A DNA stretch of 64,000 nt. Source: Acidimicrobiales bacterium. Its GTDB lineage: Bacteria > Actinomycetota > Acidimicrobiia > Acidimicrobiales > Aldehydirespiratoraceae. This document shows, piece after piece, positions 6,428 to 21,000 of this stretch. The DNA is taken from assembly GCA_965207755.1 (NCBI GenBank), contig OZ242297.1, positions 2,311,406 to 2,375,405 of the forward strand. The letters are read 5' to 3'. A program made the translations under genes and the position numbers. The stretch's first letter is position 1, and the number at the start of each line of letters is the position of its first letter. The notes below the pieces were generated by a model that ran no database searches, was not told the origin of the DNA, and saw only the letters and a program-made list of their open reading frames with translations.

Positions 6428-7507
6428 TCAGGCGAACAGCGCCTCCACGAACTCCGAGGCGTCGAAGGGCACCAGGTCGGCGATCCCCTCGCCGACTCCG
6501 ACGAGCTTCACCGGCACCCCGAGCTCGGCCTGCACGGCCACCACGATCCCGCCCTTGGCCGAGCCGTCCAGCTTGGTGAGCACGACCCCGGTCACATCGA
6601 CGGCCTCGGTGAACTGCCGGGCCTGGGCCAAGCCGTTCTGGCCGGTCGTGGCGTCGAGCACCAGAAGGGTCTCGGTCACCACCCCCGACCCCTTGCCGGC
6701 CACCCGCCGCACCTTCTGGAGCTCGGCCATGAGGTTGCGCTCGGTGTGGAACCGGCCGGCCGTGTCGGCCAGGACCAGATCCGCCCCCCGGGCCGCCGCC
6801 GACTCCACCGCGTCGTACACCACCGACGCGGGATCGGCACCGGCCGAGCCCCGCACGACGTGCGCCGAGGAGCGCTCCGCCCACATGGCCAGCTGGTCCG
6901 CGGCGGCGGCCCGGAAGGTGTCGCCCGCGGCCATCACCACCCCGGCGCCGGCGTCGGCCTCGCGCTTGGCCAGCTTGCCGATGGTGGTGGTCTTTCCGGT
7001 GCCGTTGACCCCGACGAACAGCCACACCGACGGCCGTCCGCCGTCGCGGCGGCCGGCCAGCGACCGGTCGAAGCCGCCGAGCCGTTCCCGCAGCTCGGCC
7101 TTCAGGGCCGCAGTCGCCTCCTGGGCCCGGTTCCCGCCCGAAGCAGCCCGCGATCTGGCCGCCTCGACTATCTCGGAACTGGTCGTCAGCCCGACGTCGG
7201 CCCGGATCAGGGCCTCGGTGACCTCGGTCCAGGCCTCCTCGGTGGACGAGGCCCGCTCCAGCGCCGAGGCCAGCGGCCCGCCCAGCGCAGCCCGCGCCTT
7301 CGACAGGCGGTCGCGCAGCGAGGGCGCCGGGCCCTCGGTTCCGGCTCTGCCGGCCAGCCGGCCGACCACCCGGTCCGCCGCCTCGCCGGCGGCGGCCTGC
7401 GGGTCCGGGGCCGCGGTCGCCGACGGCCGGCGGCGCCGGCGGGCCACCACGACCGCGACCAGTGCCGCCGCCAACGCGACCAGTACGACAACGAGGATCA
7501 GCGTCAT
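6428..7507 (-). CDS. ftsY: SRP receptor FtsY with N-terminal membrane anchor
   Basis: MTLILVVVLVALAAALVAVVVARRRRR anchor, plus GVNGTGKTTT, DTAGR and TKLDGSAKGG motifs. Confidence 0.96.
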   Translation of the reverse strand: MTLILVVVLVALAAALVAVVVARRRRRPSATAAPDPQAAAGEAADRVVGRLAGRAGTEGPAPSLRDRLSKARAALGGPLASALERASSTEEAWTEVTEALIRADVGLTTSSEIVEAARSRAASGGNRAQEATAALKAELRERLGGFDRSLAGRRDGGRPSVWLFVGVNGTGKTTTIGKLAKREADAGAGVVMAAGDTFRAAAADQLAMWAERSSAHVVRGSAGADPASVVYDAVESAAARGADLVLADTAGRFHTERNLMAELQKVRRVAGKGSGVVTETLLVLDATTGQNGLAQARQFTEAVDVTGVVLTKLDGSAKGGIVVAVQAELGVPVKLVGVGEGIADLVPFDASEFVEALFA

Positions 7508-7702: not shown

Positions 7703-9388
7703 TCAGGGGTCTGCTGGGTCTGGGCGTGTCCAGGGGCCTGCGCCGCCTATGTGGGTCACGGTCTCGGCTCGGGGCGGGTCGTATTGGCTGTGGGCGGCCC
7801 AGTGGAAGTCCAGGCCGAAGTCGTGGCGGCGGTTGCCGTCGTCGTCGGTGGCGGGCAGCCCCCGCAGCGGCTGGTCGGGGCCGGCCCGGCGGTCGATGGG
7901 GACCAGCCGATGCACCGCGAGGACCCTGTGGTGCTCGTCGAGGAACGTCAGGTAGGCGCGCACGTCCTCGATGACGAGGTCCTGGAGTGTCTCGGTGTCG
8001 ACGGCGCCGGGATGCGAGGTCGGCGCCGCGAGGTCCACCCGGGTGCTCCACTGGCGGATCGCGGCGTGGTCTCCGGGCCCGAGCGACGGATCCAGGGGCG
8101 CCCAGTTCGCGCCGAAAGCGGGGTCGGCCGCTTGTCGCAGCACCCAGGAGACGCCCCACGGCGACGTGCGTGCCGGGTCGACCGCGAGGCTGGGGTCTCC
8201 GCGGAAGGAGCGGCTCAGGTCCGGCCGCGGCGACATCTCGGCGCTCACCGCGAGCTCGAAGCGCTGCGGCATCTCAGTCACCGCCGCCGCGTCCAGCACG
8301 AACGGCGCCACCTCCCCGGGCTGCAGCGTCAACGCGAACACCGACTCCTGTTCGCCCCACGTCACCGTCACCCGGCGCGCGAACAGCGCCGCGGATCTGT
8401 TCTGCACCAGCCCCAGCAACTCGCCGCCGCGCAACGCAGCGGTGTCCCACAACAGCACCACCTCATCGGCGGGCGCCTCCACCGCGAACACGCCGAGAGG
8501 CGCCCGATAGCCCAGCAGTTCGCCCCCGTAGCCCAGACTGTGGCCGCAGCCGTACAGGCACGCCGTCTCCCGCGCGGTCCGCTGCGCGGCCTCCGTCGCG
8601 GCCTGCGGCGACTCCCTGGGCGGCCCGAACCCGTCCCAGGTCACGTGCGCGTACAGCGGGGCGCCTTCGACGCCGCACCCGGGCCGCAGCTCGAAGACCT
8701 CGCCGAAGATCACGTTGAGGTCGGCCTGTCCGGGGCTGGGACCGACACGCCAGATCTCGTCATAGACCGCCGTCAGGGTGTCGTCGGTGTCGCCGCACAG
8801 CCAGAGGACCTTGCCCAGCAGCGGTTCCCAAGGCGACTGCTGCTCGACGCGCAGCGGGCCCGCGCCCTTCCCGACCACCGCGCCGGGCCGCCCCGGCCGG
8901 GCCACCAGCCCGCCGGGCCGACCCGACCCGTCCGAACCCCCCGACCAGAAGACACCCGCCCCGCCGGGGCCCTCCCGGCCGACATCGACGCTCCCCGCAC
9001 CGTCATCGACGCTCCCCGCACCGTCATCGACCCCGCCGCCGCCGACAGCGACGCTGGAGGAACGGGACCCGTCGAGCGGTCCCTCACCCGAACCCGGCCC
9101 GGGCACATCCCCGGCCGGCACCACCCCGCCGACAGGCACGCCGCCGGGCACAGCGGGCTCGGGCTCGTCCCGCGGACCAGGGAACCATCCGCTGCCGGGC
9201 TCGGCCGCGGCCGGGGCTGCCGGCGGCGTCGCCGCGCCCTGGCCGACAGGCTCGGGCGACGCGCACGACACGGCACCGGCCAGCGCCAGCGCCGCCCCCG
9301 CCGCGCCCCATGGCGCCCGGCGCGCACGGCGGCCGTGTCCCGCAAGCGCGCGACGGCGCGCCGCGGCCGCTCTCAGCGGATGTGGCAT
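7703..9388 (-). CDS. Uncharacterised lipoprotein, family X copy 1 (Cys-rich N-domain plus one LVQN/QPGEVAPF module)
   Basis: The ATG at 9388 gives MPHPLRAAAARRR...AALALAGAVSC, a lipobox. It is paralogous along its whole length to 13170..14978 and shares a module with the 766/768-aa proteins. Its start overlaps the upstream gene's stop by 16 nt. Confidence 0.8.
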   Translation of the reverse strand: MPHPLRAAAARRRALAGHGRRARRAPWGAAGAALALAGAVSCASPEPVGQGAATPPAAPAAAEPGSGWFPGPRDEPEPAVPGGVPVGGVVPAGDVPGPGSGEGPLDGSRSSSVAVGGGGVDDGAGSVDDGAGSVDVGREGPGGAGVFWSGGSDGSGRPGGLVARPGRPGAVVGKGAGPLRVEQQSPWEPLLGKVLWLCGDTDDTLTAVYDEIWRVGPSPGQADLNVIFGEVFELRPGCGVEGAPLYAHVTWDGFGPPRESPQAATEAAQRTARETACLYGCGHSLGYGGELLGYRAPLGVFAVEAPADEVVLLWDTAALRGGELLGLVQNRSAALFARRVTVTWGEQESVFALTLQPGEVAPFVLDAAAVTEMPQRFELAVSAEMSPRPDLSRSFRGDPSLAVDPARTSPWGVSWVLRQAADPAFGANWAPLDPSLGPGDHAAIRQWSTRVDLAAPTSHPGAVDTETLQDLVIEDVRAYLTFLDEHHRVLAVHRLVPIDRRAGPDQPLRGLPATDDDGNRRHDFGLDFHWAAHSQYDPPRAETVTHIGGAGPWTRPDPADP

Positions 9389-9837
9389 GACGGTTTGTGC
9401 TTGTCGAGCGGCCCCCAGCCGCTGCCGCCGGTGTAGGTGCCCTCGTAGGCCTCTGCTGTCAGCGTGATGCCGCTGTAGATGATCCCGACCTGCAGGCATC
9501 TGTTCCTGTAGCGGCGGTTGATCTCATCGGCGTCGGCGCCGCTGGCGGGAGTCTCCTGCTGCCACCGCTCCGCCAGCGTCGTCACCGCCAGGTCAGCGGC
9601 CCTCTGACGGGCATCGCTCGAGCGGACCCTCTCCGCGGCGCCGCCCACCGTGTCGCCCATGAGCACCACCGCAACCGCGGCGATCCCCGCCACCGCGGCC
9701 ACCACCAGCAGCCACTCCAGAGTCGTCAACCCCTCCTCGCGCCCGGGCCGCGCACCGGTCCTGCCGCGCCGGCCGATGCCCGGGCCGCCGCCGACCGGGC
9801 GCAGGCCGCCGCGGCGTCGCCTACCCGGCGCCGTCAT
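9373..9837 (-). CDS. Type-IV/Flp-pilin-like protein, copy 1 (basic leader, G/LTTLEW motif, hydrophobic helix, C-terminal Cys pair)
   Basis: MTAPGRRRRGGLRPVGGGPGIGRRGRTGARPGREEG|LTTLEWLLVVAAVAGIAAVAVVL, with Glu at +5 after the Gly. The start was chosen by alignment with copy 2. Two conserved Cys lie near the C-terminus. Confidence 0.75.
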   Translation of the reverse strand: MTAPGRRRRGGLRPVGGGPGIGRRGRTGARPGREEGLTTLEWLLVVAAVAGIAAVAVVLMGDTVGGAAERVRSSDARQRAADLAVTTLAERWQQETPASGADADEINRRYRNRCLQVGIIYSGITLTAEAYEGTYTGGSGWGPLDKHKPSCHIR

Positions 9838-12121
9838 GCACGCCGCCCACGGTGATGGCGAAGTCGTGGTATTCGTAGTTCGGCAGGAACACCACCAGGA
9901 AGGACGAGTCCAGGCCGATGCGATGCACTTGGACCGGGCCATACGTGCCGTCATCGCGGGTTGTCTCTATGTAGGGGGTCAACTCGCTCACGTCGAGGAC
10001 CCTGTCTTCGTCGTCGAGCCGGGTCAGGTAGACCCGCAGGTCCTCGACCACCAGGTCCGCCACCTCGCCGGCGACGCTGGGATGCGAGGTCGGCTCCTCA
10101 AGCCGGATGAGCGTCTCGTAGGCTTGGACCCAGTCGTCGCGCGACACGCCCTCGGGGCGGACGATGTGGGGGTACCATCCCAGCACGTGCTCGACCTGAC
10201 CCCAGGTGTCGGCCCAGATGCCGGGCAGTCCCGAGACTAGGAACGAACGCCGCAGGTCCGGCTCGGGCGTCAACTGCGCGCTCACCTCCAAGCCGATCGA
10301 CTCAGGGTCTGAGGGCCCCTGATATCCCCCTATCTCGAAGGGCGCCACCTCGCCGGGCTGCACCGTCAACGGGAACACCCACCTGCCTTCGCCCGCAGAC
10401 ACCGTCACATGGCGAGCGAACAGCCTGTCGGACATGTTCTGCACCAGGCCCCTGACCGTCTCGCCGTCCACCAGCACCGAATCCAGCCGCACCGCCACCT
10501 CGTCGCTGAACACGTCTGAGTCGTAGCGGTCAGGCCAGTAGTCCGCGTACCCGAACTCGATGATGCTCCAAGGCTGGGCCTTCCTCAGCGGCCCCGGAAG
10601 ATCAGCAGCCGCGCCGTCGCCGCCGGGCGTCTCAGAGCCCGGCCGCGGACTCCCATCGGGCCCGTCGGCGCCCTCGGCGCCGTCGTGGGCGCCGCCCACG
10701 GTGATGCCGAGGTTGAATCTGCCGTAGGTGCTGCCCGGGGTCGGCAGGAACACCACTAGGCGGTGTCTGTTCTCGCGGTCGGCTCGGCGCGCCGGGACCA
10801 CGCGGCGTCTGCCGTCGTTGCCGGTCACCTGTGCGTAGGGGGTCAACTCGCTCACGTCGAGGACCCTGTCCTCGTCGTCGAGCCGGGTCAGATAGACCCG
10901 CAGGTCCTCGACCACCAGGTCCGCCGCCTCGCCGGCGACGCTGGGATGCGAGGTCGGCTCCTGAAGCGAGACGGACGTCTCGTAGGCGTGGCCCCTGTCG
11001 CCGCGCGACACGCCCTCAGGGCGCACGATGTGGGGGAACCGGCGATACACCTCCTCGATGTGGTCCCAGGTGCCGGCCCAGACGCCGGGCAATCCCGAGA
11101 CCCGGAACGAACGCCGCAGATCCGGCTCAGGCGTCAACTGCGCGCTCACCTCCAAACCGATCGACTCAGGGTCTGCCGGCCCGCGGTAGCCGTCGATCTC
11201 GAAGGGCGCCACCTCGCCGGGCTGCACCGTCAACGGGAACACCCACCTGCCTTCGCCCGCAGACACCGTCACATGGCGAGCGAACAGCCTGTCGGACATG
11301 TTCTGCACCAGGCCCCTGACCGTATCGCCGTCCACCAGCACCGAATCCAGCCGCACCGCCACCTCGTCGCTGAACACTTCTGAGTCGTAGCGGTCAGGCC
11401 AGCCGTCCAAGTACCCCAACTCAAAGAAGGCCCCATTTCCCAGCGCGCGCCTCAGCGGCCCCGGACCATCAGCAACCGCACCGTCGCCGCCCGGCGCCTC
11501 AGAGCCCGGCCGCGAACCCCCATCCGGCGCCTCGGCGCCCGCGCCGGGCTCTCGGGCGCCCCCGACGCCGTCAGGCCCGGCATCACCGGACGGATCCTCC
11601 CCATCAGCCGGGCCGGCAGCATCCCCGGACACCGCGGCCCGCCCCACCGCCACCGCACCAACCCCCCGACCGGGCATCCCGCCAGCGGACCCGTCGCCGG
11701 GCGCGAGCGCCTCCGCGGCGGCGTCACGGACCCCGGCCCCCGCACCGGGCATCCCGCCAGCGGACCCGTCGCCGGCGCCTCCCGCCGCTGCGACCGCACC
11801 CGCAGCATCGCCGGCGTCCCGGCGTGGGTCAGCGATCCCGAAGCCGTCAACGGCACCGGAGCCGGCGTCCTCGAACCACCCGCCGCCGGCGCCGGAGCCC
11901 GTGCCGTCGAACCACTCCGCACCACCGCCGGGCGTGTCAAGCGGATCGCCCGCACCGGACGCGGCGTCGGGCCGCCCGCAGCCCGCCAACAACACAGCCG
12001 CAACCCACCAGACCAGCAGCCGCCTCCGCCCAGTACCGCACCCCCGGCCAAGCACAGCAACGTCGCCCGCCCGCTCGGCCCCATCCGCCCCGACACGCCC
12101 CGCGGGCGTCCGGCCCCGCAT
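9821..12121 (-). CDS. Uncharacterised lipoprotein with two tandem LVQN/QPGEVAPF modules, copy A (766 aa from MRGRTP; alternative ATG at 12145)
   Basis: Signal and lipobox RRRLLVWWVAAVLLAGCG, a Gly/Ala/Asp-rich linker, then two modules of about 270 aa. Near-identical to 15822..18128 except for the last 135 aa or so. Confidence 0.8.
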   Translation of the reverse strand: MRGRTPAGRVGADGAERAGDVAVLGRGCGTGRRRLLVWWVAAVLLAGCGRPDAASGAGDPLDTPGGGAEWFDGTGSGAGGGWFEDAGSGAVDGFGIADPRRDAGDAAGAVAAAGGAGDGSAGGMPGAGAGVRDAAAEALAPGDGSAGGMPGRGVGAVAVGRAAVSGDAAGPADGEDPSGDAGPDGVGGAREPGAGAEAPDGGSRPGSEAPGGDGAVADGPGPLRRALGNGAFFELGYLDGWPDRYDSEVFSDEVAVRLDSVLVDGDTVRGLVQNMSDRLFARHVTVSAGEGRWVFPLTVQPGEVAPFEIDGYRGPADPESIGLEVSAQLTPEPDLRRSFRVSGLPGVWAGTWDHIEEVYRRFPHIVRPEGVSRGDRGHAYETSVSLQEPTSHPSVAGEAADLVVEDLRVYLTRLDDEDRVLDVSELTPYAQVTGNDGRRRVVPARRADRENRHRLVVFLPTPGSTYGRFNLGITVGGAHDGAEGADGPDGSPRPGSETPGGDGAAADLPGPLRKAQPWSIIEFGYADYWPDRYDSDVFSDEVAVRLDSVLVDGETVRGLVQNMSDRLFARHVTVSAGEGRWVFPLTVQPGEVAPFEIGGYQGPSDPESIGLEVSAQLTPEPDLRRSFLVSGLPGIWADTWGQVEHVLGWYPHIVRPEGVSRDDWVQAYETLIRLEEPTSHPSVAGEVADLVVEDLRVYLTRLDDEDRVLDVSELTPYIETTRDDGTYGPVQVHRIGLDSSFLVVFLPNYEYHDFAITVGGVHDGAG

Positions 12122-12123
12122 CG

Positions 12124-12479
12124 TCACACTCGGTGCCAGCTGCATGTCCCCTGTGTGGGGCAGTGCTTGATGTAGAGGACCCTGGTACCCACAGCATTCA
12201 CGAACCCTTCACCGAGAACCCTCCGGGCAGCGCACGTCGGCCGCCGCGGACCCCGCACCGAGACGCCGCAGCCGCTCCGGCGCGCCCTCCAGCCCAGGAA
12301 ACCCCACCAGACCGAACACCGCCGCCGACACCGCCGGCAGCCACAACAGACCCGGACGCGCCCGACCTGTCCGCCGGACCGCCCCGCATCTGCACGGCGA
12401 CCGTCGCTGCACCCCCAAAACTGTACACAACCCTCACCGGCCGCCACAGCCGCCCACCCCGGACACGCCGGCTGCCATG
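12124..12479 (-). pseudogene. Deletion derivative of the leader-ORF plus 884-aa gene: 73-aa leader ORF copy (12209..12430) joined to the last 27 codons or so of the large gene
   Basis: The DNA about 12205-12479 matches about 20775-21055. The 12124-12210 segment encodes ...FVNAVGTRVLYIKHCPTQGTCSWHRV, identical to the C-terminus of the 18131..20785 protein. The roughly 2.5 kb in between is absent. Confidence 0.75.
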
Positions 12480-12486
12480 CGCCCGG

Positions 12487-12862
12487 GCCGGACCGGCCAC
12501 GACCGACGCCACCAAGCCCCGGTCCGTGCCCGACTGGTCGACCACCCGGGCGCCGATCAGCTCGTGGACCCACAGCTCATCGGGGTCCGCGATCGGCGCG
12601 GCCCGCAGCACCAGCCCCCTCAGAGCCTCGGCCTGGATGCGGTCGCCGATGCCGGCGAAGGCCACCAGGTGGCGCTTGTTGTGGGGTCGGGCCGAGGAGA
12701 CCTGCAGGGTCCCCGAGTCGGTCCGCAGCTCCGATCCGGGCGCCAGGCGCTCGGGCCGGTTCGACACCAGAGTGACGGTCACCTCGCCGCCGGTGCCGTG
12801 GGGCCGCCCGACGCGGCCGACCTCCAGCAGCGGCGCCGTCCCGGCGCCGGACGAGTCGGCCT
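12487..12862 (-). pseudogene. Partial copy of rimM (roughly residues 5-128), lacking its own start and the C-terminal PRC-barrel end
   Basis: The DNA aligns base for base with 3709-4083, with scattered substitutions. It encodes DSSGAGTAPLLEVGRVGRPHGTGGEVTVTLVSNRPERLAPGSELRTD...IADPDELWVHELIGARVVDQSGTDRGLV. Confidence 0.85.
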
Positions 12863-12882
12863 GTTCAGTCACGCAGCCCGGA

Positions 12883-13137
12883 AGGCGCCCGATAGCCCAA
12901 CTCCTCGCCGCCGAAGCCGAGACTGTGGCCACAGCCGTACAGACACCCCGCCTGCTGCGCCGCGTCGGTCGCCTCCTCCGGCGACGCCCTCGCCGAGCCG
13001 AACCCGTCCCAGGTCACGTGCGCGTACAGCGCAGCGCCCTCGCGGCCACGCTCGGGCCGGATCTCGAACAGCTCGCCGAAGATCACATTGATGTCGGCCT
13101 GCCCAGGGCTGGGACCCACACGAACCGTCTCATTCCA
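12883..13137 (-). pseudogene. Fragment of a family-X lipoprotein gene (part of the Cys-rich N-domain only)
   Basis: Encodes VRVGPSPGQADINVIFGELFEIRP...LYAHVTWDGFGSARASPEEATDAAQQAGCLYGCGHSLGFGGEELGYRAP, matching the interior of 7703..9388 (DNA about 8490-8760). It has no signal peptide and no module. Confidence 0.8.
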
Positions 13138-13169
13138 GGCGCGCATGAGCGGACGGGTGCCTGTGTGCG

Positions 13170-14978
13170 TCACGGGCCCGCCGCGTCTGCGCGTGTCCAC
13201 GGGCCTGCGCCGCCTATGTGCAGCACGGCCTCGACTTCGATCGGGTCGTATTCGCTGTCGGCGGCCCAGTAGAACTCCAGACCGAAGTCGTAGATCAACT
13301 CGCCCATGCCGTTGTACTGGAGGTTGCCGTCTTCGTCGCGCACAGGCAGCCCCCTCAGCGGCTCGTCAGGGTCGGCCCAGCCGTTCTCGGGGACCAGCCG
13401 ATGCACCGCGAACACTCTGCCGTGCCCGTCGAGGAACGTCAGATAGGCGCGCATTTCCTCAACGACCAGATCCTCCAACCCGGCCACCACATCGGGATGC
13501 GACTCCGGCGCCACCAACTCCACAGAGATGTTCCACTCGCGCATATTGACCTCATCGCCGGGTCCCAGCGACGGATCCAGAGGCGCCCAGTTCGCGCCGA
13601 AGTCCGGGTCCGCCATCTGCTGCTGCACCCAGCCGACGTCCCAATACGACGAATGCAGCGCACCGAACGGGAAATCGGCGAAGAACGAGCGGCTCAGGTC
13701 AGGCTGCGGCGACAGCGCCGCGCTCACCTCGACCTCAGACGGCTCCGGCAGCACAGAGGACCCGGCGGCGTCCAGCACGAACGGCGCCACCTCCCCGGGC
13801 TGCAACGTCAACGCGAACACCGACTCCCGCCCGCCCCACCTCACCGTCACCTCACGCGCGAACAACTCCGCGGACATGTTCTGCACCAGCCCCAGCATCT
13901 CGCCGCCGCGCAGCGCCACCGAATCCCACAACAGCACCACCTCATCGACAGGCGCCTCCACCGCGAACGCCCCATAGGGCGCCTCATAGCCCAACAACTG
14001 GCCGCCGTAGCCGAGATTGTGGCCACAGCCATACAGGCACGCCCCCTCCTGCACCGCCTCCGTCGCCTCCTCGGGCGACCCCCTCGCCGGCCCGAACCCG
14101 CGCCAAGTCAAATGCACATACAACCGGCCGCGGTCGCCGCCGCACTCACCGTCTTGGAAATCGGCGATCTTCAGGCCCATCAGATACAGATCAGACGACG
14201 GCGGATCGGCGACACGCACCACCTTCTCGAACATCGCCGCCACCGCGTCGGCGTCACAAACCTCCAAGACATCGCCCATAACCGCATCCCAAGGTAGATA
14301 CCCCCAGGGCTCGTCGCTGCGAAGCGGACCCTGACCATTCGCAACCACCGCCCCGCGCTGGTGCGGCCGGCCAACCAACTCGCCAGGCTCACGGAACCCG
14401 CCCGAACCCCCCGACCCAGACACCGAAACCTCCTCCGAAACACCCACCCCGCCGCCATCAACAACAGCCCCGACATCATCAACGGCCCCGCCATCGACGG
14501 ATCCGCCATCATCAACGGCCCCATCACCGGCCCCGCCATCATCAACAACCCGTCCGCCGTCAGCGACACCGCCGCCAACAGCATCACCGCCGCCGCCGTC
14601 AACGACCACGACACTGGAAGGCATGCGCTCGTCGGACAGGCCCCCACCAGCACCCGTATCCGACACATCCCCAGCCGACACCGCCCCGCCGCCGGCTCCT
14701 GCAGCGGCATCGGCTGCGGGCCCATGCCCGTGCCCCGGATCAGAGAACGAGCGACCGTCGACTGCCTCACCGCCGCCGGGCTCGGCTGCGGGCTCAGAGA
14801 TGTGCCCCCGATCAGAGAACCAGCCGCCGACACGCTCGTCCACGGCCGGGGGCGCCGCCTCGCCTCCGCCGTCAGGCTCAGACGGCGCGCACGACACGGC
14901 CCCGACCAGCGCCGCCAACACCAACCCCGCGCCGCCCAGGACCCGAAGCCGGCCATCCTTCACCGTCGAAGCTCGCAT
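13170..14978 (-). CDS. Uncharacterised lipoprotein, family X copy 2
   Basis: The ATG at 14978 gives MRASTVKDGRLRVLGGAGLVLAALVGAVSC, a lipobox. It has a Gly/Asp/Val low-complexity linker, a CLYGCGHNLGYGG N-domain and one LVQN/QPGEVAPF module. It ends HIGGAGPWTRADAAGP, like copy 1. Confidence 0.8.
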   Translation of the reverse strand: MRASTVKDGRLRVLGGAGLVLAALVGAVSCAPSEPDGGGEAAPPAVDERVGGWFSDRGHISEPAAEPGGGEAVDGRSFSDPGHGHGPAADAAAGAGGGAVSAGDVSDTGAGGGLSDERMPSSVVVVDGGGGDAVGGGVADGGRVVDDGGAGDGAVDDGGSVDGGAVDDVGAVVDGGGVGVSEEVSVSGSGGSGGFREPGELVGRPHQRGAVVANGQGPLRSDEPWGYLPWDAVMGDVLEVCDADAVAAMFEKVVRVADPPSSDLYLMGLKIADFQDGECGGDRGRLYVHLTWRGFGPARGSPEEATEAVQEGACLYGCGHNLGYGGQLLGYEAPYGAFAVEAPVDEVVLLWDSVALRGGEMLGLVQNMSAELFAREVTVRWGGRESVFALTLQPGEVAPFVLDAAGSSVLPEPSEVEVSAALSPQPDLSRSFFADFPFGALHSSYWDVGWVQQQMADPDFGANWAPLDPSLGPGDEVNMREWNISVELVAPESHPDVVAGLEDLVVEEMRAYLTFLDGHGRVFAVHRLVPENGWADPDEPLRGLPVRDEDGNLQYNGMGELIYDFGLEFYWAADSEYDPIEVEAVLHIGGAGPWTRADAAGP

Positions 14979-15374
14979 CACGACAGCAGCGAGCCGACGG
15001 CCGGGTCGATCCACTCGCAGGCCGCCGCAGTCGCGGCCACAGCCGCGCCGCATTCCTCGTTGTCGCCCGCCCTCACATAGAGCACCCTTCCGTCCACGTT
15101 GCCGACGTACCAGCCGTTGCCGTGCGGTCCCAGCCTCGACGCTCGCGCGTACTGGTCGTCTGGGACGGCCTTGATCAGCGTGTGGGCGTAGCCGGTGTGC
15201 GCCTTGGGGAACACCGCGTACTTGGTGCCTTCGTGCGCGATCTTGTCCGGGTTGGTCAACGAGACGAACGCGACCTGTCCTCTTGGCGAACCTGTAGACG
15301 CTGCCCGCGGGGTTGCACGACCCGCCGTAGACGCGCAGCCCGCCGTCGCCGCACGCCTCGACCGGCGCCGTCAT
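14978..15374 (-). pseudogene. Stand-alone paralog of the C-terminal domain of the 884-aa protein; apparently split by a 1-nt frame change
   Basis: The ATG at 15374 (ATGA overlap with the pilin-like stop) gives MTAPVEACGDGGLRVYGGSCNPAGSVYRFAKRTG. Homology then continues in the next frame: VAFVSLTNPDKIAHEGTKYAVFPKAHTGYAHTLIKAVP...GWYVGNVDGRVLYVRAG. Compare ...GGATVYHPDG...LGFVSFTDTDGTKYAAFP...GWFVNAVGTRVLYIKHC in the large protein. Confidence 0.6.
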
Positions 15375-15838
15375 CGGATCGCGAGAATGCTGCACAGCGG
15401 CGTGTTGTGCCAGCCGGTCGGCCGGTCGGGGTCATAGATGCCTTCGACGATGTCGGTTCCCGCCAAAACGTCGGCGTAGATGATCTCCAGTCGCCGGCAC
15501 CGCCGCCGGTAGCGGGCGTTGATCTGGTCGGCGTCGCTCTGTGTGGAGGGCCGCTGCTGCTGCCAGGCGTCCTCGAGCTCGGTGGCCGCGAGGTCCGCGG
15601 CCTCCTGACGCGCGCTGTGGGATCCGACCTGCTCGGCCGTGCCGCCGACCACGCTCTGCACCAGCACCACGCCCAGCGCGGCCAGCCCCGCCACCGCGGC
15701 CACCACCAGCAGCCACTCCAGAGTCGTCAACCCCTCATCGCGCCCGGGCCGCGCACCGGTCCTGCCGCGCCGGCCGGTGCCCGGGCCACCGCCGACCGGG
15801 CGCAGGCCACCACGGCGTCGCCTACCCGGCGCCGTCAT
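15371..15838 (-). CDS. Type-IV/Flp-pilin-like protein, copy 2
   Basis: MTAPGRRRRGGLRPVGGGPGTGRRGRTGARPGRDEG|LTTLEWLLVVAAVAGLAALGVVL. The first 50 aa or so are nearly identical to copy 1 and the mature part is divergent. The Cys pair is conserved. Confidence 0.78.
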   Translation of the reverse strand: MTAPGRRRRGGLRPVGGGPGTGRRGRTGARPGRDEGLTTLEWLLVVAAVAGLAALGVVLVQSVVGGTAEQVGSHSARQEAADLAATELEDAWQQQRPSTQSDADQINARYRRRCRRLEIIYADVLAGTDIVEGIYDPDRPTGWHNTPLCSILAIR

Positions 15839-18128
15839 GCACGCCGCCCACGGTGATGGCGAAGTCGTAGTCGTCGTAGTTCAGCAGAAACACCACCAGG
15901 AAGTACCTGTTCTCGCGGTCGATTCGGCGCACCTGGATCGGGCCGTAGGTCCCGTCGTCGCGGGTTGTCTCCTTGTAGGGGGTCAGCTCGCTCACATCGA
16001 CGATGCGGTCGGCGTCGTCGAGCCGGGTCAGGTACACCCGCAGGTCCTCGACCACGAAGTCCGCCGCCTCGCCGACGACGCTGGGATGCGAGGTCGGCTC
16101 CTCCTCAAACTCGATGAACGTCTGGTAGACGTAGGCCAACTCGTCGCGCGACACGCCCTCGGGGCGGACGATGTGGGGGTACCATCCCAGCACGTGCTCG
16201 ACCTGATCCCAGGTGTCGGCCCAGAACCCCGGACTGTTCTCGACCCAGAACGAACGCCGCAGGTCCGGCTCGGGCGTCAGCTGCGCGCTCACCTCCAAGC
16301 CGATCGACTCAGGGTCTGAGGGCCCCTGATATCCCCCTATCTCGAAGGGCGCCACCTCGCCGGGCTGCACCGTCAACGGGAACACCCACCTGCCTTCGCC
16401 CGCAGACACCGTCACATGGCGAGCGAACAGCCTGTCGGACATGTTCTGCACCAGGCCCCTGACCGTATCGCCGTCCACCAGCACCGAATCCAGCCGCACC
16501 GCCACCTCGTCGCTGAACACGTCTGAGTCGTAGCGGTCAGGCCAGTGGTCCGAGTACCCGAACTCGATGATGCTCCAAGGCTGGGCCTTCCTCAGCGGCC
16601 CCGGAAGATCAGCAGCCGCACCGTCGCCGCCGGGCGTCTCAGAGCCCGGCCGCGGACTCCCATCGGGCCCGTCGGCGCCCTCGGCGCCGTCGTGGGCGCC
16701 GCCCACGGTGATGCCGAGGTTGAATCTGCCGTAGGTGCTGCCCGGGGTCGGCAGGAACACCACTAGGCGGTGTCTGTTCTCGCGGTCGGCTCGGCGCGCC
16801 GGGACCACGCGGCGTCTGCCGTCGTTGCCGGTCACCTGTGCGTAGGGGGTCAACTCGCTCACGTCGAGGACCCTGTCCTCGTCGTCGAGCCGGGTCAGAT
16901 AGACCCGCAGGTCCTCGACCACCAGGTCCGCCGCCTCGCCGGCGACGCTGGGATGCGAGGTCGGCTCCTGAAGCGAGACGGACGTCTCGTAGGCGTGGCC
17001 CCTGTCGCCGCGCGACACGCCCTCAGGGCGCACGATGTGGGGGAACCGGCGATACACCTCCTCGATGTGGTCCCAGGTGCCGGCCCAGACGCCGGGCAAT
17101 CCCGAGACCCGGAACGAACGCCGCAGATCCGGCTCAGGCGTCAACTGCGCGCTCACCTCCAAACCGATCGACTCAGGGTCTGACGGCCCCTGATATCCCC
17201 CTATCTCGAAGGGCGCCACCTCGCCGGGCTGCACCGTCAACGGGAACACCCACCTGCCTTCGCCCGCAGACACCGTCACATGGCGAGCGAACAGCCTGTC
17301 GGACATGTTCTGCACCAGGCCCCTGACCGTATCGCCGTCCACCAGCACCGAATCCAGCCGCACCGCCACCTCGTCGCTGAACACTTCTGAGTCGTAGCGG
17401 TCAGGCCAGCCGTCCAAGTACCCCAACTCAAAGAAGGCCCCATTTCCCAGCGCGCGCCTCAGCGGCCCCGGACCATCAGCAACCGCACCGTCGCCGCCCG
17501 GCGCCTCAGAGCCCGGCCGCGAACCCCCATCCGGCGCCTCGGCGCCCGCGCCGGGCTCTCGGGCGCCCCCGACGCCGTCAGGCCCGGCATCACCGGACGG
17601 ATCCTCCCCATCAGCCGGGCCGGCAGCATCCCCGGACACCGCGGCCCGCCCCACCGCCACCGCACCAACCCCCCGACCGGGCATCCCGCCAGCGGACCCG
17701 TCGCCGGGCGCGAGCGCCTCCGCGGCGGCGTCACGGACCCCGGCCCCCGCACCGGGCATCCCGCCAGCGGACCCGTCGCCGGCGCCTCCCGCCGCTGCGA
17801 CCGCACCCGCAGCATCGCCGGCGTCCCGGCGTGGGTCAGCGATCCCGAAGCCGTCAACGGCACCGGAGCCGGCGTCCTCGAACCACCCGCCGCCGGAGCC
17901 GGAGCCCGTGCCGTCGAACCACTCCGCACCACCGCCGGGCGTGTCGGGCGTGTCGCCCGCACCGGACGCGGCGTCGGGCCGCCCGCAGCCCGCCAACAAC
18001 ACAGCCGCAACCCACCAGACCAGCAGCCGCCTCCGCCCAGTACCGCACCCCCGGCCAAGCACAGCAACGTCGCCCGCCCGCTCGGCCCCATCCGCCCCGA
18101 CACGCCCCGCGGGCGTCCGGCCCCGCAT
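15822..18128 (-). CDS. Uncharacterised lipoprotein with two tandem LVQN/QPGEVAPF modules, copy B (768 aa; alternative ATG at 18152)
   Basis: Same architecture as 9821..12121. The ATG at 18128 lies 2 nt after the stop of the 884-aa gene. Confidence 0.8.
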   Translation of the reverse strand: MRGRTPAGRVGADGAERAGDVAVLGRGCGTGRRRLLVWWVAAVLLAGCGRPDAASGAGDTPDTPGGGAEWFDGTGSGSGGGWFEDAGSGAVDGFGIADPRRDAGDAAGAVAAAGGAGDGSAGGMPGAGAGVRDAAAEALAPGDGSAGGMPGRGVGAVAVGRAAVSGDAAGPADGEDPSGDAGPDGVGGAREPGAGAEAPDGGSRPGSEAPGGDGAVADGPGPLRRALGNGAFFELGYLDGWPDRYDSEVFSDEVAVRLDSVLVDGDTVRGLVQNMSDRLFARHVTVSAGEGRWVFPLTVQPGEVAPFEIGGYQGPSDPESIGLEVSAQLTPEPDLRRSFRVSGLPGVWAGTWDHIEEVYRRFPHIVRPEGVSRGDRGHAYETSVSLQEPTSHPSVAGEAADLVVEDLRVYLTRLDDEDRVLDVSELTPYAQVTGNDGRRRVVPARRADRENRHRLVVFLPTPGSTYGRFNLGITVGGAHDGAEGADGPDGSPRPGSETPGGDGAAADLPGPLRKAQPWSIIEFGYSDHWPDRYDSDVFSDEVAVRLDSVLVDGDTVRGLVQNMSDRLFARHVTVSAGEGRWVFPLTVQPGEVAPFEIGGYQGPSDPESIGLEVSAQLTPEPDLRRSFWVENSPGFWADTWDQVEHVLGWYPHIVRPEGVSRDELAYVYQTFIEFEEEPTSHPSVVGEAADFVVEDLRVYLTRLDDADRIVDVSELTPYKETTRDDGTYGPIQVRRIDRENRYFLVVFLLNYDDYDFAITVGGVHDGAG

Positions 18129-18130
18129 CG

Positions 18131-20785
18131 TCACACTCGGTGCCAGCTGCATGTCCCCTGTGTGGGGCAGTGCTTGATGTAGAGGACCCTGGTACCCACA
18201 GCATTCACGAACCAGCCGTAACCATCACCGACACCAGCGCCCACTTCGCGGGCGTACTTGTTCTTGGGGACGCCCCTGATGAGGGTCTCGGCGTAGCCGG
18301 TGCCGGTGCCGGCCTCGCCGATGTCGTTGGCCGGGAACGCCGCGTACTTGGTGCCGTCGGTGTCGGTGAAGGACACGAACCCCAACGGCAGCGGGGTTAT
18401 GTCATACCAGATCTCGAAAGTTCCGCAGCCGGCGTCCTTGCAGTGCTTCCTGGTCCTGCCGTCGGGGTGATAGACCGTCGCGCCGCCCTCGGCGTTGGCG
18501 ATGTCATACCAGTGGCAGTCGAAGGGCTCGCCGCCGGTGCCCCACCGGCAGCGGCGATCCTGCACCCCTCCGTCGGGATCTGAGCCCGCCACCCGGCGGA
18601 CCCTCAACGCGTCGTTGGCGTCGTCATAGATGGTCTCAGCTATAGGGATGCAGTGATTGATGTCGGGATCCTCCCCGAACCGCTTCTGCGCCTTGCACGC
18701 AAGCCAGGTCTCAAGCTGTTTCTTGAGTTTCTCCTCGCTCGCGCAGAGCCCGCCGAAGAGGTGCTTCGCGACCTCGACGGCGGCGTGGTTGACGTTGGCC
18801 CGTTTGGCGTGGTGCCACTCCTTGACCGGCTCCCACAAGTCGAGTTGCCACGGGCCCACGCCGGGGCTCCAGTGCGCGCGCGGCTCGCCGGTCTGGGTGC
18901 CCTTGGAGAACAGGCCGGTGCTCTCATCGTTGGTGAACAGCGAATCCCACCGCGACAGGTCCATCAGCGACGGGTTGTCCTTGTGGAGTTCGCGGATCGG
19001 TATGGCCAGCACGTACGCGGCCAACTCGTTGGCGGTGACCGGATCGCTGTCTCGTGTGACGCACTCCCTGCCGGCGTTGCCGTCGATCACCCGGCGAGCC
19101 GCGGACATGACCCCGTCGATGATCGCGGCGCCGTACCGGTAGGCCGCGGTGCGGCACCGCTGGTCGGCGGGGTTCCTGAACAGCGGAGAAGCGCACACGC
19201 GGGGCCGGCAGCCGTCGTCGGAGCCCCTGGCGAACGCCGACATGTAGGTCTGATCAGACGGGCACACGTTCACCGCGGACACCGAGAGGGTGAACCCGCC
19301 CGGGTTCCGGTCGGCGCGTCTGGCTACCTCGACGGTGTAGCGGCCCACCATCCCCTCGGGGTTGAGCAGCGCGCTGACGGTCGCGGCGCGGGCTTCGCCG
19401 CCGGGGCTGGAGGCCGTGTGCAGCGGCTTGGCGCTGCCGGCGTCGCCGTCATGCACATACACATCGATGGCATGGTCAGAAACCGCCACGACGGTGACCG
19501 TCGCCGCCTCCGCCAGCGTGAGCGTGTAGCGCTTGGCGTAGTAAGGGGTCTGGTCGCCGTGCTGCGACGACTTGCACGACGACACCCACACGTTGCCCAC
19601 CCGGGCCCCGCCGAGGGTGATCCGCAACTCGCAGACAACCGGCGACACCACGGTGAAGACCGCCGTCTTGCGGGCGGCGGCGTAGCCGTCGCTAAAGCAC
19701 CTGACCGTGACCTGCACTTCGCCCACCGCCGATCCGGTGTCCAACCTCACGCTGCGCTGCGTGCCGTCGTCGTCGGGGATCGGCAGCGGCGCCGACAGCG
19801 GGCCCGACCCCTGCCACGCATAACAGTTCGCGTCGCCTGGAACCACACCGAAGTCCGCATCGATCGGCGACACGTCCGAGACGTCCCCCAAGCCGGTGAT
19901 CGCGACCCTGGCGGGTGTGGCGGGCTCAGGCTCGTCTGAGTCCGTGTCAGGCTCGTCTGAGTCCGTGTCAGGCTCGTCTGAGTCCGTGTCAGGCTCGTCT
20001 GAGTCCGTGTCAGGCTCGTCTGAGTCCGTGTCAGGCTCGTCTGAGTCCGTGTCAGGCTCAGGCGTGTCAGGCTCGGGCTCGTCTGAGTCCGTGTCAGGCT
20101 CGTCTGAGTCCGTGTCAGGCTCAGGCGTGTCAGGCTCGGGCTCGTCTGAGTCCGTGTCAGGCTCAGGCGTGTCAGGCTCGGGCTCGTCTGAGTCTGTGTC
20201 GGGCTCAGGCAGGGTCGTCGTGGTGGTGGTACTCGTCGTTGTTGTGCTCGTCGTGGTGGTCGTGGTGGTGGTGCTGGTCGTTGTTGTGGTCGTGGTGGTC
20301 GTGCTGGTACTGGTCGTGGTGGTGGGGTGGGTGTGGGGCACTGGGTCCGCGGTCACGTAGCGGTAGCAGGAGATGGCGCGCCCGTAGGCCTCCTGGGTGT
20401 AGCCGCCGGGGCAGCGCATCGACGTGCGCGTCGACCACGCGTCCACCGTCTTGTAGCAGCCAGCCCCGATCCTGCGATACCCCGCCGAGCACACATAGCG
20501 GGTCTCAGTCACGGTGCGGGTGCGGCCCCTCACCCAGCACCCCGTGCCCGAAGTCGCCGACGTGCTGCAATAGCGCGTGCCCCTGATCCCGCGCCAGTAG
20601 CCCTGACGCACGCACCCCGCCCGCGTCGCCATGTCGACACACACCGTCTTCGTCGTCGTCCTCGCAGTGGCGTCCACCCGCACGCTGCGGGTACACGACG
20701 GACCGCTCCGCACCCCGAGACAGACCCTCACCGTCGTCACCACCACCGGCGCGTACTCGCGTTTGCGGCAGCCCGAACCCTTCAC
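18131..20785 (-). CDS. 884-aa multidomain protein: Cys-rich repeats, poly-Thr/Ser linker, DTDSDEP acidic heptad repeats, a PPC-like beta domain (tentative), a possible lysozyme-like region (tentative) and a conserved C-terminal domain
   Basis: Long ORF with coding-type repeats and visibly lower GC than its neighbours. The GTG start overlaps the stop of the 72-aa leader ORF (GTGA). No signal peptide at the annotated start. Confidence 0.75.
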   Translation of the reverse strand: MKGSGCRKREYAPVVVTTVRVCLGVRSGPSCTRSVRVDATARTTTKTVCVDMATRAGCVRQGYWRGIRGTRYCSTSATSGTGCWVRGRTRTVTETRYVCSAGYRRIGAGCYKTVDAWSTRTSMRCPGGYTQEAYGRAISCYRYVTADPVPHTHPTTTTSTSTTTTTTTTTSTTTTTTTTSTTTTSTTTTTTLPEPDTDSDEPEPDTPEPDTDSDEPEPDTPEPDTDSDEPDTDSDEPEPDTPEPDTDSDEPDTDSDEPDTDSDEPDTDSDEPDTDSDEPDTDSDEPEPATPARVAITGLGDVSDVSPIDADFGVVPGDANCYAWQGSGPLSAPLPIPDDDGTQRSVRLDTGSAVGEVQVTVRCFSDGYAAARKTAVFTVVSPVVCELRITLGGARVGNVWVSSCKSSQHGDQTPYYAKRYTLTLAEAATVTVVAVSDHAIDVYVHDGDAGSAKPLHTASSPGGEARAATVSALLNPEGMVGRYTVEVARRADRNPGGFTLSVSAVNVCPSDQTYMSAFARGSDDGCRPRVCASPLFRNPADQRCRTAAYRYGAAIIDGVMSAARRVIDGNAGRECVTRDSDPVTANELAAYVLAIPIRELHKDNPSLMDLSRWDSLFTNDESTGLFSKGTQTGEPRAHWSPGVGPWQLDLWEPVKEWHHAKRANVNHAAVEVAKHLFGGLCASEEKLKKQLETWLACKAQKRFGEDPDINHCIPIAETIYDDANDALRVRRVAGSDPDGGVQDRRCRWGTGGEPFDCHWYDIANAEGGATVYHPDGRTRKHCKDAGCGTFEIWYDITPLPLGFVSFTDTDGTKYAAFPANDIGEAGTGTGYAETLIRGVPKNKYAREVGAGVGDGYGWFVNAVGTRVLYIKHCPTQGTCSWHRV
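19915..20210. repeat. Coding tandem repeat (21-nt unit GGCTCGTCTGAGTCCGTGTCA and longer variants) encoding DTDSDEP / PEPDTPEP; followed by a poly-Thr-encoding tract at about 20215-20335
   Basis: Read directly in the DNA. The units are contiguous with no spacers, and they lie in frame inside 18131..20785. Confidence 0.9.
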
Positions 20786-21000
20786 CGAGAACCCTCCGGG
20801 CAGCGCACATCGGCCGCCGCTGACCCCGCACCGAGACGCCGCAGCCGCTCAGGCGCGCCCTCCAGCCCAGGAAACCCCACCAGACCGAACACCGCCACCG
20901 ACACCGCCAGCAGCCACAACAGACCCCGACGCGCCCAGCCCCGCCGGGCCGCCCCGCCTCCGCACGGCGACCGTCGCTGCACCCCCAAAACTGTACACAA
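20782..21000 (-). CDS. 72-aa leader ORF with a signal-peptide-like hydrophobic segment (may be the detached N-terminus of the 884-aa protein)
   Basis: ...RRGWARRGLLWLLAVSVAVFGLVGFPG... The same ORF is conserved in the remnant at 12209..12430. Its stop overlaps the downstream GTG. Confidence 0.5.
   Translation of the reverse strand: MCTVLGVQRRSPCGGGAARRGWARRGLLWLLAVSVAVFGLVGFPGLEGAPERLRRLGAGSAAADVRCPEGSR

What the first reader, a model, noticed from the sequence alone, without database searches (positions are those of the whole stretch)
9821..18128. A new repeated protein module (LVQN...FAR.VTV...QPGEVAPF...EPTSHPSV...EDLRVYLT) present six times, with four nearly identical 300-bp DNA copies
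The module has two halves.
- First half: VRLDSVLVDG.TVRGLVQNMSDRLFARHVTVSAGEGRWVFPLTVQPGEVAPFEI.GY.GP.DPESIGLEVSAQLTPEPDLRRSF.
- Second half, more variable: ...HIVRPEGVSR......EPTSHPSV.GE..DLVVEDLRVYLTRLDD.DR..DVSELTPY...

It occurs twice in each 766/768-aa protein. A diverged version occurs once in each family-X protein: LWD..ALRGGE.LGLVQN.SA.LFAR.VTV.WG..ESVFALTLQPGEVAPFVLD.

The DNA for the first half is almost identical at four places: 10241-10537, 11104-11401, 16248-16544 and 17111-17408. That means within-gene as well as between-gene homogenisation (concerted evolution), while the second halves differ.

The first half looks like a beta-sandwich. I cannot name the family.
Basis: seen in the sequence. 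Interest (0 to 1): 0.65.

Follow-up and report, generated by a model that had tools for sequence, protein, structure and literature searches.

The report
Unnamed lipoprotein module with homogenised half
A sponge-associated actinobacterium carries six copies of a roughly 260-residue surface-lipoprotein module that matches no named protein family; its first half is kept nearly identical between copies by gene conversion, its second half varies, and its function is still unknown.

Summary
A roughly 260-aa module occurs six times: twice in each of two 774/776-aa lipoproteins (A, B) and once in each of two "X" lipoproteins. Four ~260–300-bp DNA copies of its first half are 95–99% identical.

The module matches nothing in Pfam, NCBIfam, PADLOC, PHROGs or PDB sequences. 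An AlphaFold model is confident (pLDDT 92) and shows two all-beta subdomains, with no convincing Foldseek match. The family is closed: 248 cluster representatives, and every named relative is an Acidimicrobiia, mostly from sponge metagenomes. Nearly all members carry a lipobox.

Concerted evolution of half 1 is supported:
- In a related genome, paralogue half 1 has dS 0.05 and half 2 has dS 0.67.
- Half 1 groups by genome; half 2 does not.
- A short conversion tract is visible between copies A1 and B1.

New context: the module gene almost always sits directly downstream of a gene for a second unknown, cysteine-rich domain (Y_CT). The two often overlap and sometimes form tandem arrays of pairs. 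A Flp/DUF4244-like small protein often follows. In this window all three Y-type genes are damaged, while all four lipoproteins are intact.

My best reading is a surface-displayed binding partner of Y_CT with a constant and a variable half. Function is inferred only.

The parts
9821..12145 (-). Gene A: 774-aa lipoprotein. It has a signal peptide with lipobox LLAGC (Cys codon at 11980), a Gly/Ala/Asp/Pro-rich linker of about 170 aa, and two modules.
10661..11470 (-). Module A1 (aa 226-495). Its half 1 is 11105-11362. It carries a tract (11165-11203, FEIDGYRGPADPES) found nowhere else in the window.
9824..10603 (-). Module A2 (aa 515-774). Its half 1 is 10241-10498. This is the sequence that was modelled with AF2.
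15822..18152 (-). Gene B: 776-aa lipoprotein, paralogue of A (lipobox Cys codon at 17987). Its start overlaps the 3' end of Y by 22 nt.
16668..17477 (-). Module B1. Its half 1 is 17112-17369. It is identical to A1 except for a short tract that carries the module-2 state.
15825..16610 (-). Module B2. Its half 1 is 16248-16505. Its half 2 is about 84% identical to that of A2 (dS 0.24, dN 0.155).
7703..9388 (-). Gene X1: lipoprotein (AVSC lipobox, Cys codon at 9265) with an N-terminal domain (CLYGCGH motif) and one diverged module. The module is 7706-8599 and its half 1 is 8204-8467.
13170..14978 (-). Gene X2: paralogue of X1 (66% aa identity in the module). The module is 13173-14075 and its half 1 is 13683-13946.
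9373..9837 (-). small1: 154-aa protein with a Flp/DUF4244-like N-terminus (G/LTTLEW followed by a hydrophobic helix). It overlaps the end of A by 17 nt.
15371..15838 (-). small2: paralogue of small1. It overlaps the end of B by 17 nt.
18131..20946 (-). Gene Y: a large secreted protein. Its parts are Cys-repeats, a Thr run, acidic 21-nt repeats, a middle domain conserved in the Y-type genes of related loci, and the conserved Y_CT domain (18134-19225). In this strain a 1-nt deletion near 20791 separates the signal-peptide part (about 20792-20946) from the rest.
14978..15370 (-). Remnant (C-terminal ~110 aa) of a second Y-type gene. It directly abuts the start of X2.
12146..13200 (-). Rearrangement scars between X2 and A: a Y 3'-end remnant (12146-12206), a copy of the Y upstream region (12201-12498), a partial rimM copy (12486-12874) and an X N-domain fragment (12883-13122).

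Best explanation
The module is the extracytoplasmic working part of membrane-anchored lipoproteins of Acidimicrobiia. A lipid anchor and a long disordered linker hold one or two modules away from the membrane. Each module is built from two beta subdomains.

Half 1 is the conserved scaffold. It carries the motifs GLVQN.S..LFAR.VTV, PLTVQPGEVAPF and PDL.RSF. Half 2 keeps only a few motifs (P.SHP, DLR.Y...D..GRV.DV) and is otherwise highly variable. I read half 2 as the part that sets specificity.

I infer that the module acts by binding, and that its cognate partner is the conserved cysteine-rich C-terminal domain (Y_CT) of the large secreted protein encoded immediately upstream. A Flp-like small protein is often part of the same cassette.

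The family grows by cassette and intragenic duplication. Gene conversion keeps half 1 nearly identical among paralogues of one genome, and it stops at the RRSF boundary, so diversity in half 2 is kept.

Shown: the module itself, its predicted fold class, the lipoprotein signals, the gene linkage and the conversion pattern. Inferred: surface display, binding to Y_CT, and the role of half 2.
For: Module and fold. Six copies align over about 260 aa. The AF2 model has pLDDT 91.9 and pTM 0.89, all-beta with two subdomains.

Lipoprotein signals. A lipobox follows a hydrophobic segment in A, B, X1 and X2 and in most of the relatives whose sequences I read; the exceptions are N-terminally truncated gene calls.

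Where the conservation lies. Ten of the 11 invariant family columns are in half 1. In Poriferisodalis paralogues half 1 is 49-78% identical and half 2 only 17-60%.

Linkage to Y_CT.
- Y_CT lies directly upstream of the module gene in L001, L002 (= L007), L003 (= L016), L005, L006, L009, L010, L012, L014 (three pairs), L015 (five consecutive pairs) and L017.
- Starting instead from Y_CT hits, L020, L021 and L022 again show Y followed by a module gene.
- The ORFs overlap or abut: Y/B by 22 nt, and the Y' remnant against X2.

The small Flp-like gene follows the module gene in the window and in L001, L002, L004, L006, L009, L010, L012, L013 and L022.

Conversion evidence.

High dN/dS in half 2: 0.65 to about 1.1.
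Against: - No direct evidence of binding or of surface exposure.
- No structural or sequence relative with a known function.
- In this window all Y-type genes are defective (one frameshifted, two remnants) while the four lipoproteins are intact. L004 has three module genes and no Y within 8 kb. So the lipoproteins can persist without a local Y.
- One Y_CT gene (L023) has no module gene beside it.
- A dN/dS near 1 in half 2 could also be relaxed constraint after duplication.
Confidence: 0.5

Rival explanations
1. Immunity-like inhibitor. Y_CT is a secreted antibacterial or lytic enzyme, and the lipoprotein module is its cognate neutralising partner, held in the wall zone by the lipid anchor and linker. 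Extra 'orphan' module genes and two-module fusions would protect against the Y variants of neighbouring strains.
For: - The gene order is effector followed by an overlapping lipoprotein gene, and pairs occur in tandem arrays.
- Orphan module genes outnumber intact Y genes in the window, L001 and L004.
- Y genes decay first: one frameshift and two remnants.
- Half 2 is variable with high dN/dS.
- The loci often hold transposases, toxin-antitoxin pairs or PLA2-like genes.
Against: - Y_CT is the conserved part of Y and the N-terminal part is the variable one, the opposite of polymorphic toxins.
- No known toxin, lysozyme or secretion-system domain was found.
- The lipoproteins are large (430-780 aa).
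- The Flp-like gene is left unexplained.
Confidence: 0.22
2. Ligand capture. The module is a surface glycan- or host-matrix-binding unit, comparable in role to the SusE/F-type surface glycan-binding lipoproteins of Bacteroidota. It would work beside a secreted enzyme or adhesin (Y) rather than binding Y itself.
For: - It is a lipoprotein with tandem beta subdomains on a flexible linker.
- The Y mid-region is conserved across the Y-type genes of related loci. By eye its sequence resembles Ig-like and PPC-like beta domains; that rests on my own reading, and Pfam found no such domain in the window's Y.
- The carriers come from sponge metagenomes.
- The weak Foldseek hits include a B. thetaiotaomicron surface glycan-binding protein and carbohydrate-binding modules, none significant.
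Against: - The Foldseek scores are not significant (E >= 0.005, TM < 0.25).
- No carbohydrate-binding or carbohydrate-active enzyme family matched.
- The strict pairing with Y_CT and the overlapping ORFs point to a protein partner.
Confidence: 0.15
3. The module is itself an enzyme. The invariant polar residues (N56, S58, Q82, E85, D116, R119, S173, H174) would form an active site at the junction of the two subdomains.
For: Polar residues are invariant or nearly invariant across 76 diverse members.
Against: - There is no similarity to any catalytic family or fold.
- Conserved polar residues can equally hold an interdomain interface together.
Confidence: 0.07
4. The near-identity of the four half-1 DNA copies comes only from recent duplication plus purifying selection (or from assembly collapse), without gene conversion.
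For: - Half 1 is under strong protein-level constraint (dN 0-0.03).
- The A/B identity spans a single 1.9-kb block that could be one recent event.
- The A1/A2 dS contrast alone is not significant (p = 0.23).
Against: - Synonymous sites are also homogenised: in L001 dS is 0.047 for half 1 and 0.67 for half 2, with sharp borders on both sides of half 2.
- Within-genome half-1 dS (0.015-0.15) is far below between-genome dS (0.24-0.43).
- The same pattern appears in three genomes.
- Eight clustered differences mark a short tract.
- Independent assemblies and read depth argue against collapse.
Confidence: 0.05

Closest known systems
Surface glycan-binding lipoproteins of Bacteroidota (SusE/SusF-type SGBPs)
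   Same: Both are lipid-anchored, sit on a flexible linker, are built from tandem beta subdomains, are very variable in sequence, and are encoded next to secreted enzymes. This comparison rests on my own knowledge of these proteins.
   Different: There is no detectable sequence or fold relationship (7kwb_A: E 0.013, TM 0.13). The phylum and envelope type differ. The partner here is an unknown cysteine-rich domain, not a SusC/D pair or a known glycoside hydrolase.
Enzyme-inhibitor or toxin-immunity gene pairs (for example staphopain/staphostatin, the MliC lipoprotein lysozyme inhibitors, WapA/WapI)
   Same: The partner gene lies directly downstream and often overlaps. Pairs are multiplied, orphan partner genes occur, and the partner evolves fast.
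   Different: No toxin or enzyme domain was recognised in Y_CT. Y_CT is the conserved end of Y. The partner is much larger than typical immunity proteins. A pilin-like third gene is present.
Tad/Flp pilin genes of Actinomycetota (Pfam DUF4244, annotated as the Tad pre-pilin in Bifidobacterium, PMC11418510)
   Same: The small proteins begin with a basic leader, then G/LTTLEW and a hydrophobic helix, which fits the Flp G/XXXXEY processing pattern. Six of the eight scanned, the two window proteins among them, give DUF4244 hits on that segment.
   Different: All scores are below the Pfam cut-off (13.5-22.9 bits against 27). The proteins carry an extra C-terminal part of about 90 aa with two Cys. 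No tad assembly genes lie in the window.
Surface-protein gene families homogenised or diversified by gene conversion (for example Neisseria pilE/pilS, Borrelia vlsE, Anaplasma msp2)
   Same: Paralogous surface-protein genes show mosaic identity, conversion tracts, and a constant part next to a variable part.
   Different: All copies here are full-length expressed-type genes, not silent cassettes. Conversion homogenises the constant half rather than shuffling the variable one. No programmed mechanism is evident.
Pfam PF01356 (alpha-amylase inhibitor, tendamistat)
   Same: A weak local match of about 30 residues falls over the hairpin ARHVTVSAGEGRWVFPLTVQPGEVAPFEI.
   Different: The score is 20.8 bits against a cut-off of 25. 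Only positions 28-58 of the 68-position model are matched, and only 4 of 76 members hit. The module is not a member.

Membership tests
Any curated protein family (Pfam-A 2025, NCBIfam 20.0, PADLOC, PHROGs) | The score reaches the family's curated cut-off. | tested here: not met
   Searches found no family at or above its cut-off for A, B, X1, X2 or the 76 family members.
Bacterial lipoprotein (Lgt/Lsp substrates) | A basic n-region, a hydrophobic h-region and a lipobox [LVI][ASTVI][GAS]C. | tested here: met
   Read directly from the sequences: A and B have RRRLLVWWVAAVLLAG-C, and X1/X2 have ...GAVS-C (a looser fit). Lipoboxes are present in most of the relatives whose sequences I read; the exceptions are N-terminally truncated gene calls. 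No dedicated predictor was run.
Concerted evolution by gene conversion | Paralogues within a genome are more alike than orthologues between genomes, and this holds at synonymous sites too. | tested here: met
   Half 1 is 95-99% identical within the window, L001 and L004, and 72-89% between genomes. dS is 0.015-0.15 within a genome and 0.24-0.43 between genomes.
Concerted evolution by gene conversion | Mosaic tracts with discrete borders. | tested here: met
   In L001, identity is 60/60 per 60-nt window up to RRSF, falls to 21-52/60 across half 2, and returns to 55-60/60 in the small gene. Eight of the 18 A/B differences lie within gene nt 951-970.
Flp/Tad pre-pilin (DUF4244, PF14029): small1 and small2 | A G/XXXXE[YW] processing motif followed by a hydrophobic helix. 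| tested here: met
   G-LTTLE-W followed by LLVVAAVAG is conserved in the window and in L001, L002 and L004.
Flp/Tad pre-pilin (DUF4244, PF14029): small1 and small2 | The Pfam gathering score is reached. | tested here: not met
   Scores are 13.5-22.9 bits against a cut-off of 27.
Flp/Tad pre-pilin (DUF4244, PF14029): small1 and small2 | Tad assembly genes (TadA/B/C, prepilin peptidase) are present in the genome. | not tested
   None lie among the window genes scanned. The rest of the genome was not available to me.
Lytic transglycosylase / lysozyme-like (for Y_CT) | Sequence or profile similarity to SLT-type domains. | tested here: not met
   Pfam found nothing on 22 members and a PDB profile search gave no hits. 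hhalign against E. coli EmtA and the Slt70 C-terminal domain gave probabilities of 0.1-0.3%. Only a motif-level resemblance remains (E ... GVGxWQxD).
Polymorphic toxin-immunity system | A conserved N-terminal delivery part with a variable C-terminal toxin domain. | tested here: not met
   The C-terminal domain is the conserved part across all Y-type genes, and the N-terminal parts vary.
Polymorphic toxin-immunity system | The cognate small gene lies immediately downstream, and orphan copies occur. | tested here: inconclusive
   The downstream linkage and the orphan copies are present, but the partner is a 430-780-aa lipoprotein.
SusE/F-like surface glycan-binding proteins | Fold similarity to solved SGBP structures. 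| tested here: not met
   Foldseek against PDB: 7kwb_A has E 0.013, probability 0.11 and TM 0.13, and no hit has E < 1e-3.

The most novel reading that the evidence does not exclude
The Y_CT protein, the module lipoprotein and the Flp-like small protein form a previously undescribed three-gene cell-surface cassette of Acidimicrobiia. In it, a variable subdomain (half 2) recognises cognate Y_CT variants. It would be either an inter-strain effector/protector system or a pilus-linked host-recognition system of sponge symbionts, diversified by cassette duplication and kept coherent by targeted gene conversion.
Probability: 0.3. Interest if true: 0.7.

Novelty: new variant of a known kind. Interest (0 to 1): 0.45.

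Why it matters
It defines two linked, unnamed protein domains: the lipoprotein module and Y_CT. Both are confined to Acidimicrobiia, a class with few cultured members that includes abundant sponge symbionts.

The module has a confident predicted structure and no solved relative, so it is a clean target for a structure and for a new family entry.

The locus is also a compact natural example of boundary-limited gene conversion: the constant half is homogenised and the variable half is spared, and the pattern repeats in three genomes.

If the pairing with Y_CT reflects cognate recognition, it would open a testable system for how these symbionts deal with neighbours or with the host.

Tried and rejected
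- Known families. Pfam, NCBIfam, PADLOC and PHROGs scans of A, B, X1, X2, Y and the small proteins, and of 76 module members and 22 Y_CT members, gave nothing above cut-off.
- PDB sequence profiles for the module and for Y_CT gave 0 hits at E <= 10.
- Foldseek with the module model found nothing convincing. Against PDB, no hit had E < 1e-3 and TM stayed below 0.25. Against BFVD, the best TM was 0.35. Only the whole two-subdomain model could be searched; subdomain-level search was not possible.
- AF2 on Y_CT with an 11-sequence alignment gave pLDDT 50, so its Foldseek result is meaningless.
- The idea that Y_CT is SLT/lysozyme-like rested on its E...GVGxWQxD motif. It was tested by hhalign against E. 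coli EmtA and Slt70 and was not supported.
- tblastn of the module and of Y_CT against 50,697 phage records found no match.
- A donor for the unique A1 tract was sought in the window and none was found.
- Literature: nothing was found under Poriferisodalis. One comparative paper mentions Aldehydirespirator (PMC11706023); I did not read it for this family.
- Metatranscriptome: only four small contigs, 90-95% identical, fall on ffh, X2 and Y from a related strain. This is too thin to claim expression.
- Misassembly was rejected.
Full report
**1. What is in the sequence.** The window is 71% G+C. Between ffh/ftsY (4794-7507) and an HtrA-like protease gene (from 21090), all genes run on the minus strand. 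In transcription order they are:
- Y (18131-20785)
- B (15822-18152)
- small2 (15371-15838)
- a Y-type remnant (14978-15370)
- X2 (13170-14978)
- a block of gene fragments (12146-13200)
- A (9821-12145)
- small1 (9373-9837)
- X1 (7703-9388)

A and B each contain the motif VRLDSVLVDG twice. A six-way alignment shows one module of about 260 aa in A1, A2, B1, B2, X1 and X2. Identities are 99% (A1/B1), 86% (A2/B2), 73-77% (module 1 versus module 2), 32-40% (A or B versus X) and 66% (X1/X2).

**2. Is it an artefact?** No.
- Four further sequences of the same 90%-identity cluster, from contigs other than the window's, show the two-module architecture. They include two GenBank MAG proteins, MDE0161315.1 and MDE2876295.1.
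- The sequence is present in several sponge metagenomes.
- Unitig depth is about 1.7-fold higher where A and B are identical.

**3. Is it a known family?** No.
- Pfam-A, NCBIfam, PADLOC and PHROGs give nothing above cut-off for the window proteins or for 76 family members scanned one by one. The best weak hit is PF01356 at 20.8 bits against a cut-off of 25.
- A profile against all PDB sequences gives no hit.
- A profile search of 1.84 billion cluster representatives finds a closed family: 248 proteins at E <= 1e-3, of which 205 are below 1e-30.
- Every relative that carries a credible taxon name is an Acidimicrobiia: Candidatus Aldehydirespirator/Aldehydirespiratoraceae, Candidatus Poriferisodalis, Ilumatobacter or Acidimicrobiaceae. 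One member is labelled Gemmatimonadota; it sits on a 2.4-kb contig and I take that label to be a binning error.
- Two-module proteins of 780-890 aa also exist in more distant, lower-GC members.

**4. Structure.** AF2 on module A2, with a 76-sequence alignment, gives pLDDT 91.9 and pTM 0.89. The model has seven strands in residues 36-133, a short helix, and a second beta-rich subdomain in residues 158-254. Foldseek finds no convincing match in PDB (all E > 1e-3, TM < 0.25) or BFVD (best TM 0.35). Only the whole two-subdomain model could be searched, so generic Ig-like similarity of single subdomains is not excluded.

**5. Cellular setting.** A and B start with RRRLLVWWVAAVLLAG-C, and X1/X2 have ...GAVS-C. 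Most of the relatives whose sequences I read have a comparable lipobox; the exceptions are N-terminally truncated gene calls. A Gly/Ala/Asp/Pro-rich stretch of about 170 aa follows the anchor. I infer lipoproteins whose modules are held away from the membrane of a monoderm cell. This was not tested.

**6. Evolution of the copies.** A and B differ at only 18 of the first 1905 nt. Identity then falls to about 84%, exactly after the RRSF motif that ends half 1 of module 2.

| Comparison | Region | dS | dN |
|---|---|---|---|
| Module 1 vs module 2, same gene | half 1 | 0.08-0.13 | 0-0.03 |
| Module 1 vs module 2, same gene | half 2 | 0.23-0.26 | 0.24-0.28 |
| L001 paralogues | half 1 | 0.047 | 0.005 |
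| L001 paralogues | half 2 | 0.67 | 0.385 |

- Eight of the 18 A/B differences lie within 20 nt of half 1. There B1 carries the state of A2 and B2, while flanking variable sites keep the A1 state. That is the footprint of a short conversion tract. No donor for the A1 state exists in the window.
- The strongest evidence comes from the related locus L001. Along its two single-module paralogues, identity is 60/60 per 60-nt window up to RRSF, falls to 21-52/60 through half 2, and returns to 55-60/60 in the small gene.
- Half 1 is 95-99% identical within each of three genomes (window, L001, L004) but 72-89% between them. Half 2 of L1_b is closer to the window's A2 (74%) than to its own paralogue L1_a (67%).
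In Poriferisodalis the paralogues are not homogenised, but half 1 is still far more conserved than half 2: 49-78% against 17-60% aa identity.

**7. Genomic partners (new).**
- The gene directly upstream of a module gene almost always ends in a second unknown domain, Y_CT. It is about 350 aa, with an invariant GVG.WQ.D motif, H139, R142 and several Cys.
- The pairing holds in L001, L002, L003, L005, L006, L009, L010, L012, L014 (three pairs), L015 (five consecutive pairs) and L017.
- Starting instead from Y_CT hits, L020, L021 and L022 show the same pairing. L023 is an exception.
- Y_CT matches no Pfam or PDB family. Its AF2 model was poor (pLDDT 50). A lysozyme/SLT idea based on its motifs was not supported by hhalign.
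- A small gene follows the module gene in many loci. Its product starts with a basic leader, then G/LTTLEW and a hydrophobic helix. This fits the Flp pre-pilin pattern and gives repeated but sub-threshold DUF4244 hits. DUF4244 is annotated as the Tad pre-pilin in Bifidobacterium (PMC11418510).
- No tad genes are in the window.

**8. State of the locus in this strain.**
- Y has lost one G of a GGGG run that is present in other sponge metagenomes. This separates its signal peptide from the rest of the protein.
- A second Y-type gene survives only as a C-terminal remnant abutting X2. A third survives as about 60 nt upstream of A.
- Fragments of rimM (92.6% identical to the true rimM at 3594-4163), of the Y upstream region and of an X gene lie between X2 and A. 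They point to a large tandem duplication followed by deletions.
- The four lipoprotein genes are intact.

**9. Interpretation.** The shared features are a lipid anchor, a linker, a conserved half and a variable half, tight and repeated linkage to Y_CT, and fast change in half 2. They fit best with a surface-displayed binding module whose cognate partner is Y_CT (confidence about 0.5).

Whether it docks Y, neutralises it or works beside it on an external ligand cannot be decided here:
- The decay of the Y genes with retention of orphan lipoproteins favours the protective, immunity-like reading.
- The Flp-like gene and the adhesin-like build of Y favour a surface-complex reading.
- An enzymatic role for the module is possible but unsupported.

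**10. Verdict.** This is a real, previously unnamed domain family with a well-supported case of boundary-limited concerted evolution, plus a newly noticed conserved partner domain. Its function is inferred only. It is interesting mainly as a target for family definition and structure work, and as a lead to a possible new surface cassette in sponge-associated Acidimicrobiia.

Noticed in passing
window 20785-20946: Y is frameshifted. The signal-peptide part is in another frame. The minus-strand run is GGG here, whereas contigs from two other sponge metagenomes have one more base after 20791, which restores the frame.
   Followed up: yes
window 14978-15370 (minus): An ORF with high GC3 encodes only the C-terminal ~110 aa of a second Y-type protein, most like those of L010 and L012. 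Its stop abuts the X2 start codon.
   Followed up: partly
window 12146-13200: A patchwork of fragments: a Y 3' remnant, a 93% copy of the Y upstream region (20774-21069), a 92.6% copy of part of rimM (3711-4099) and an X N-domain fragment. These are scars of a ~17-kb tandem duplication with later deletions.
   Followed up: partly
window 19851-20335: Y contains 12 tandem copies of a 21-nt unit (an acidic repeat, DSDEPEPDTPEP-like) next to a long Thr run, giving a stalk-like low-complexity region.
   Followed up: no
window 6291-6426: Two adjacent direct copies of about 64 nt (92% identical) lie in the ffh-ftsY spacer.
   Followed up: no
window 44131-49833 (+): A very large secreted subtilase: Peptidase_S8, P-domain, Calx-beta/LapA-like repeats and an A2M bait-region-like domain. 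The stop-to-stop ORF overlaps the solute-binding protein gene on the other strand, so the true start is later.
   Followed up: no
window 50041-51426 (minus): A DDE transposase (DDE_Tnp_1_4), a mobile element near the lysyl-tRNA synthetase gene.
   Followed up: no
L002 11569-11979; L020 9539-12943: Genes with a prokaryotic phospholipase A2 domain (PF09056) lie just downstream of module genes in two unrelated loci. The L002 hit is weak (E 0.0018).
   Followed up: no
P0078, P0202, P0203, P0206 (alleles of A/B in other assemblies): In these alleles, half 2 of module 2 starts like B2 (FWVENSPGFWADTWDQ) and continues like A2 (DDWVQAYETLIRLEEP...). They are either natural recombinants or chimeras of short-read assembly.
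   Followed up: partly
L015 1-16528 (Candidatus Poriferisodalis): Five consecutive Y_CT gene plus module-lipoprotein gene pairs lie on one strand within 16.5 kb, with overlapping ORFs.
   Followed up: partly
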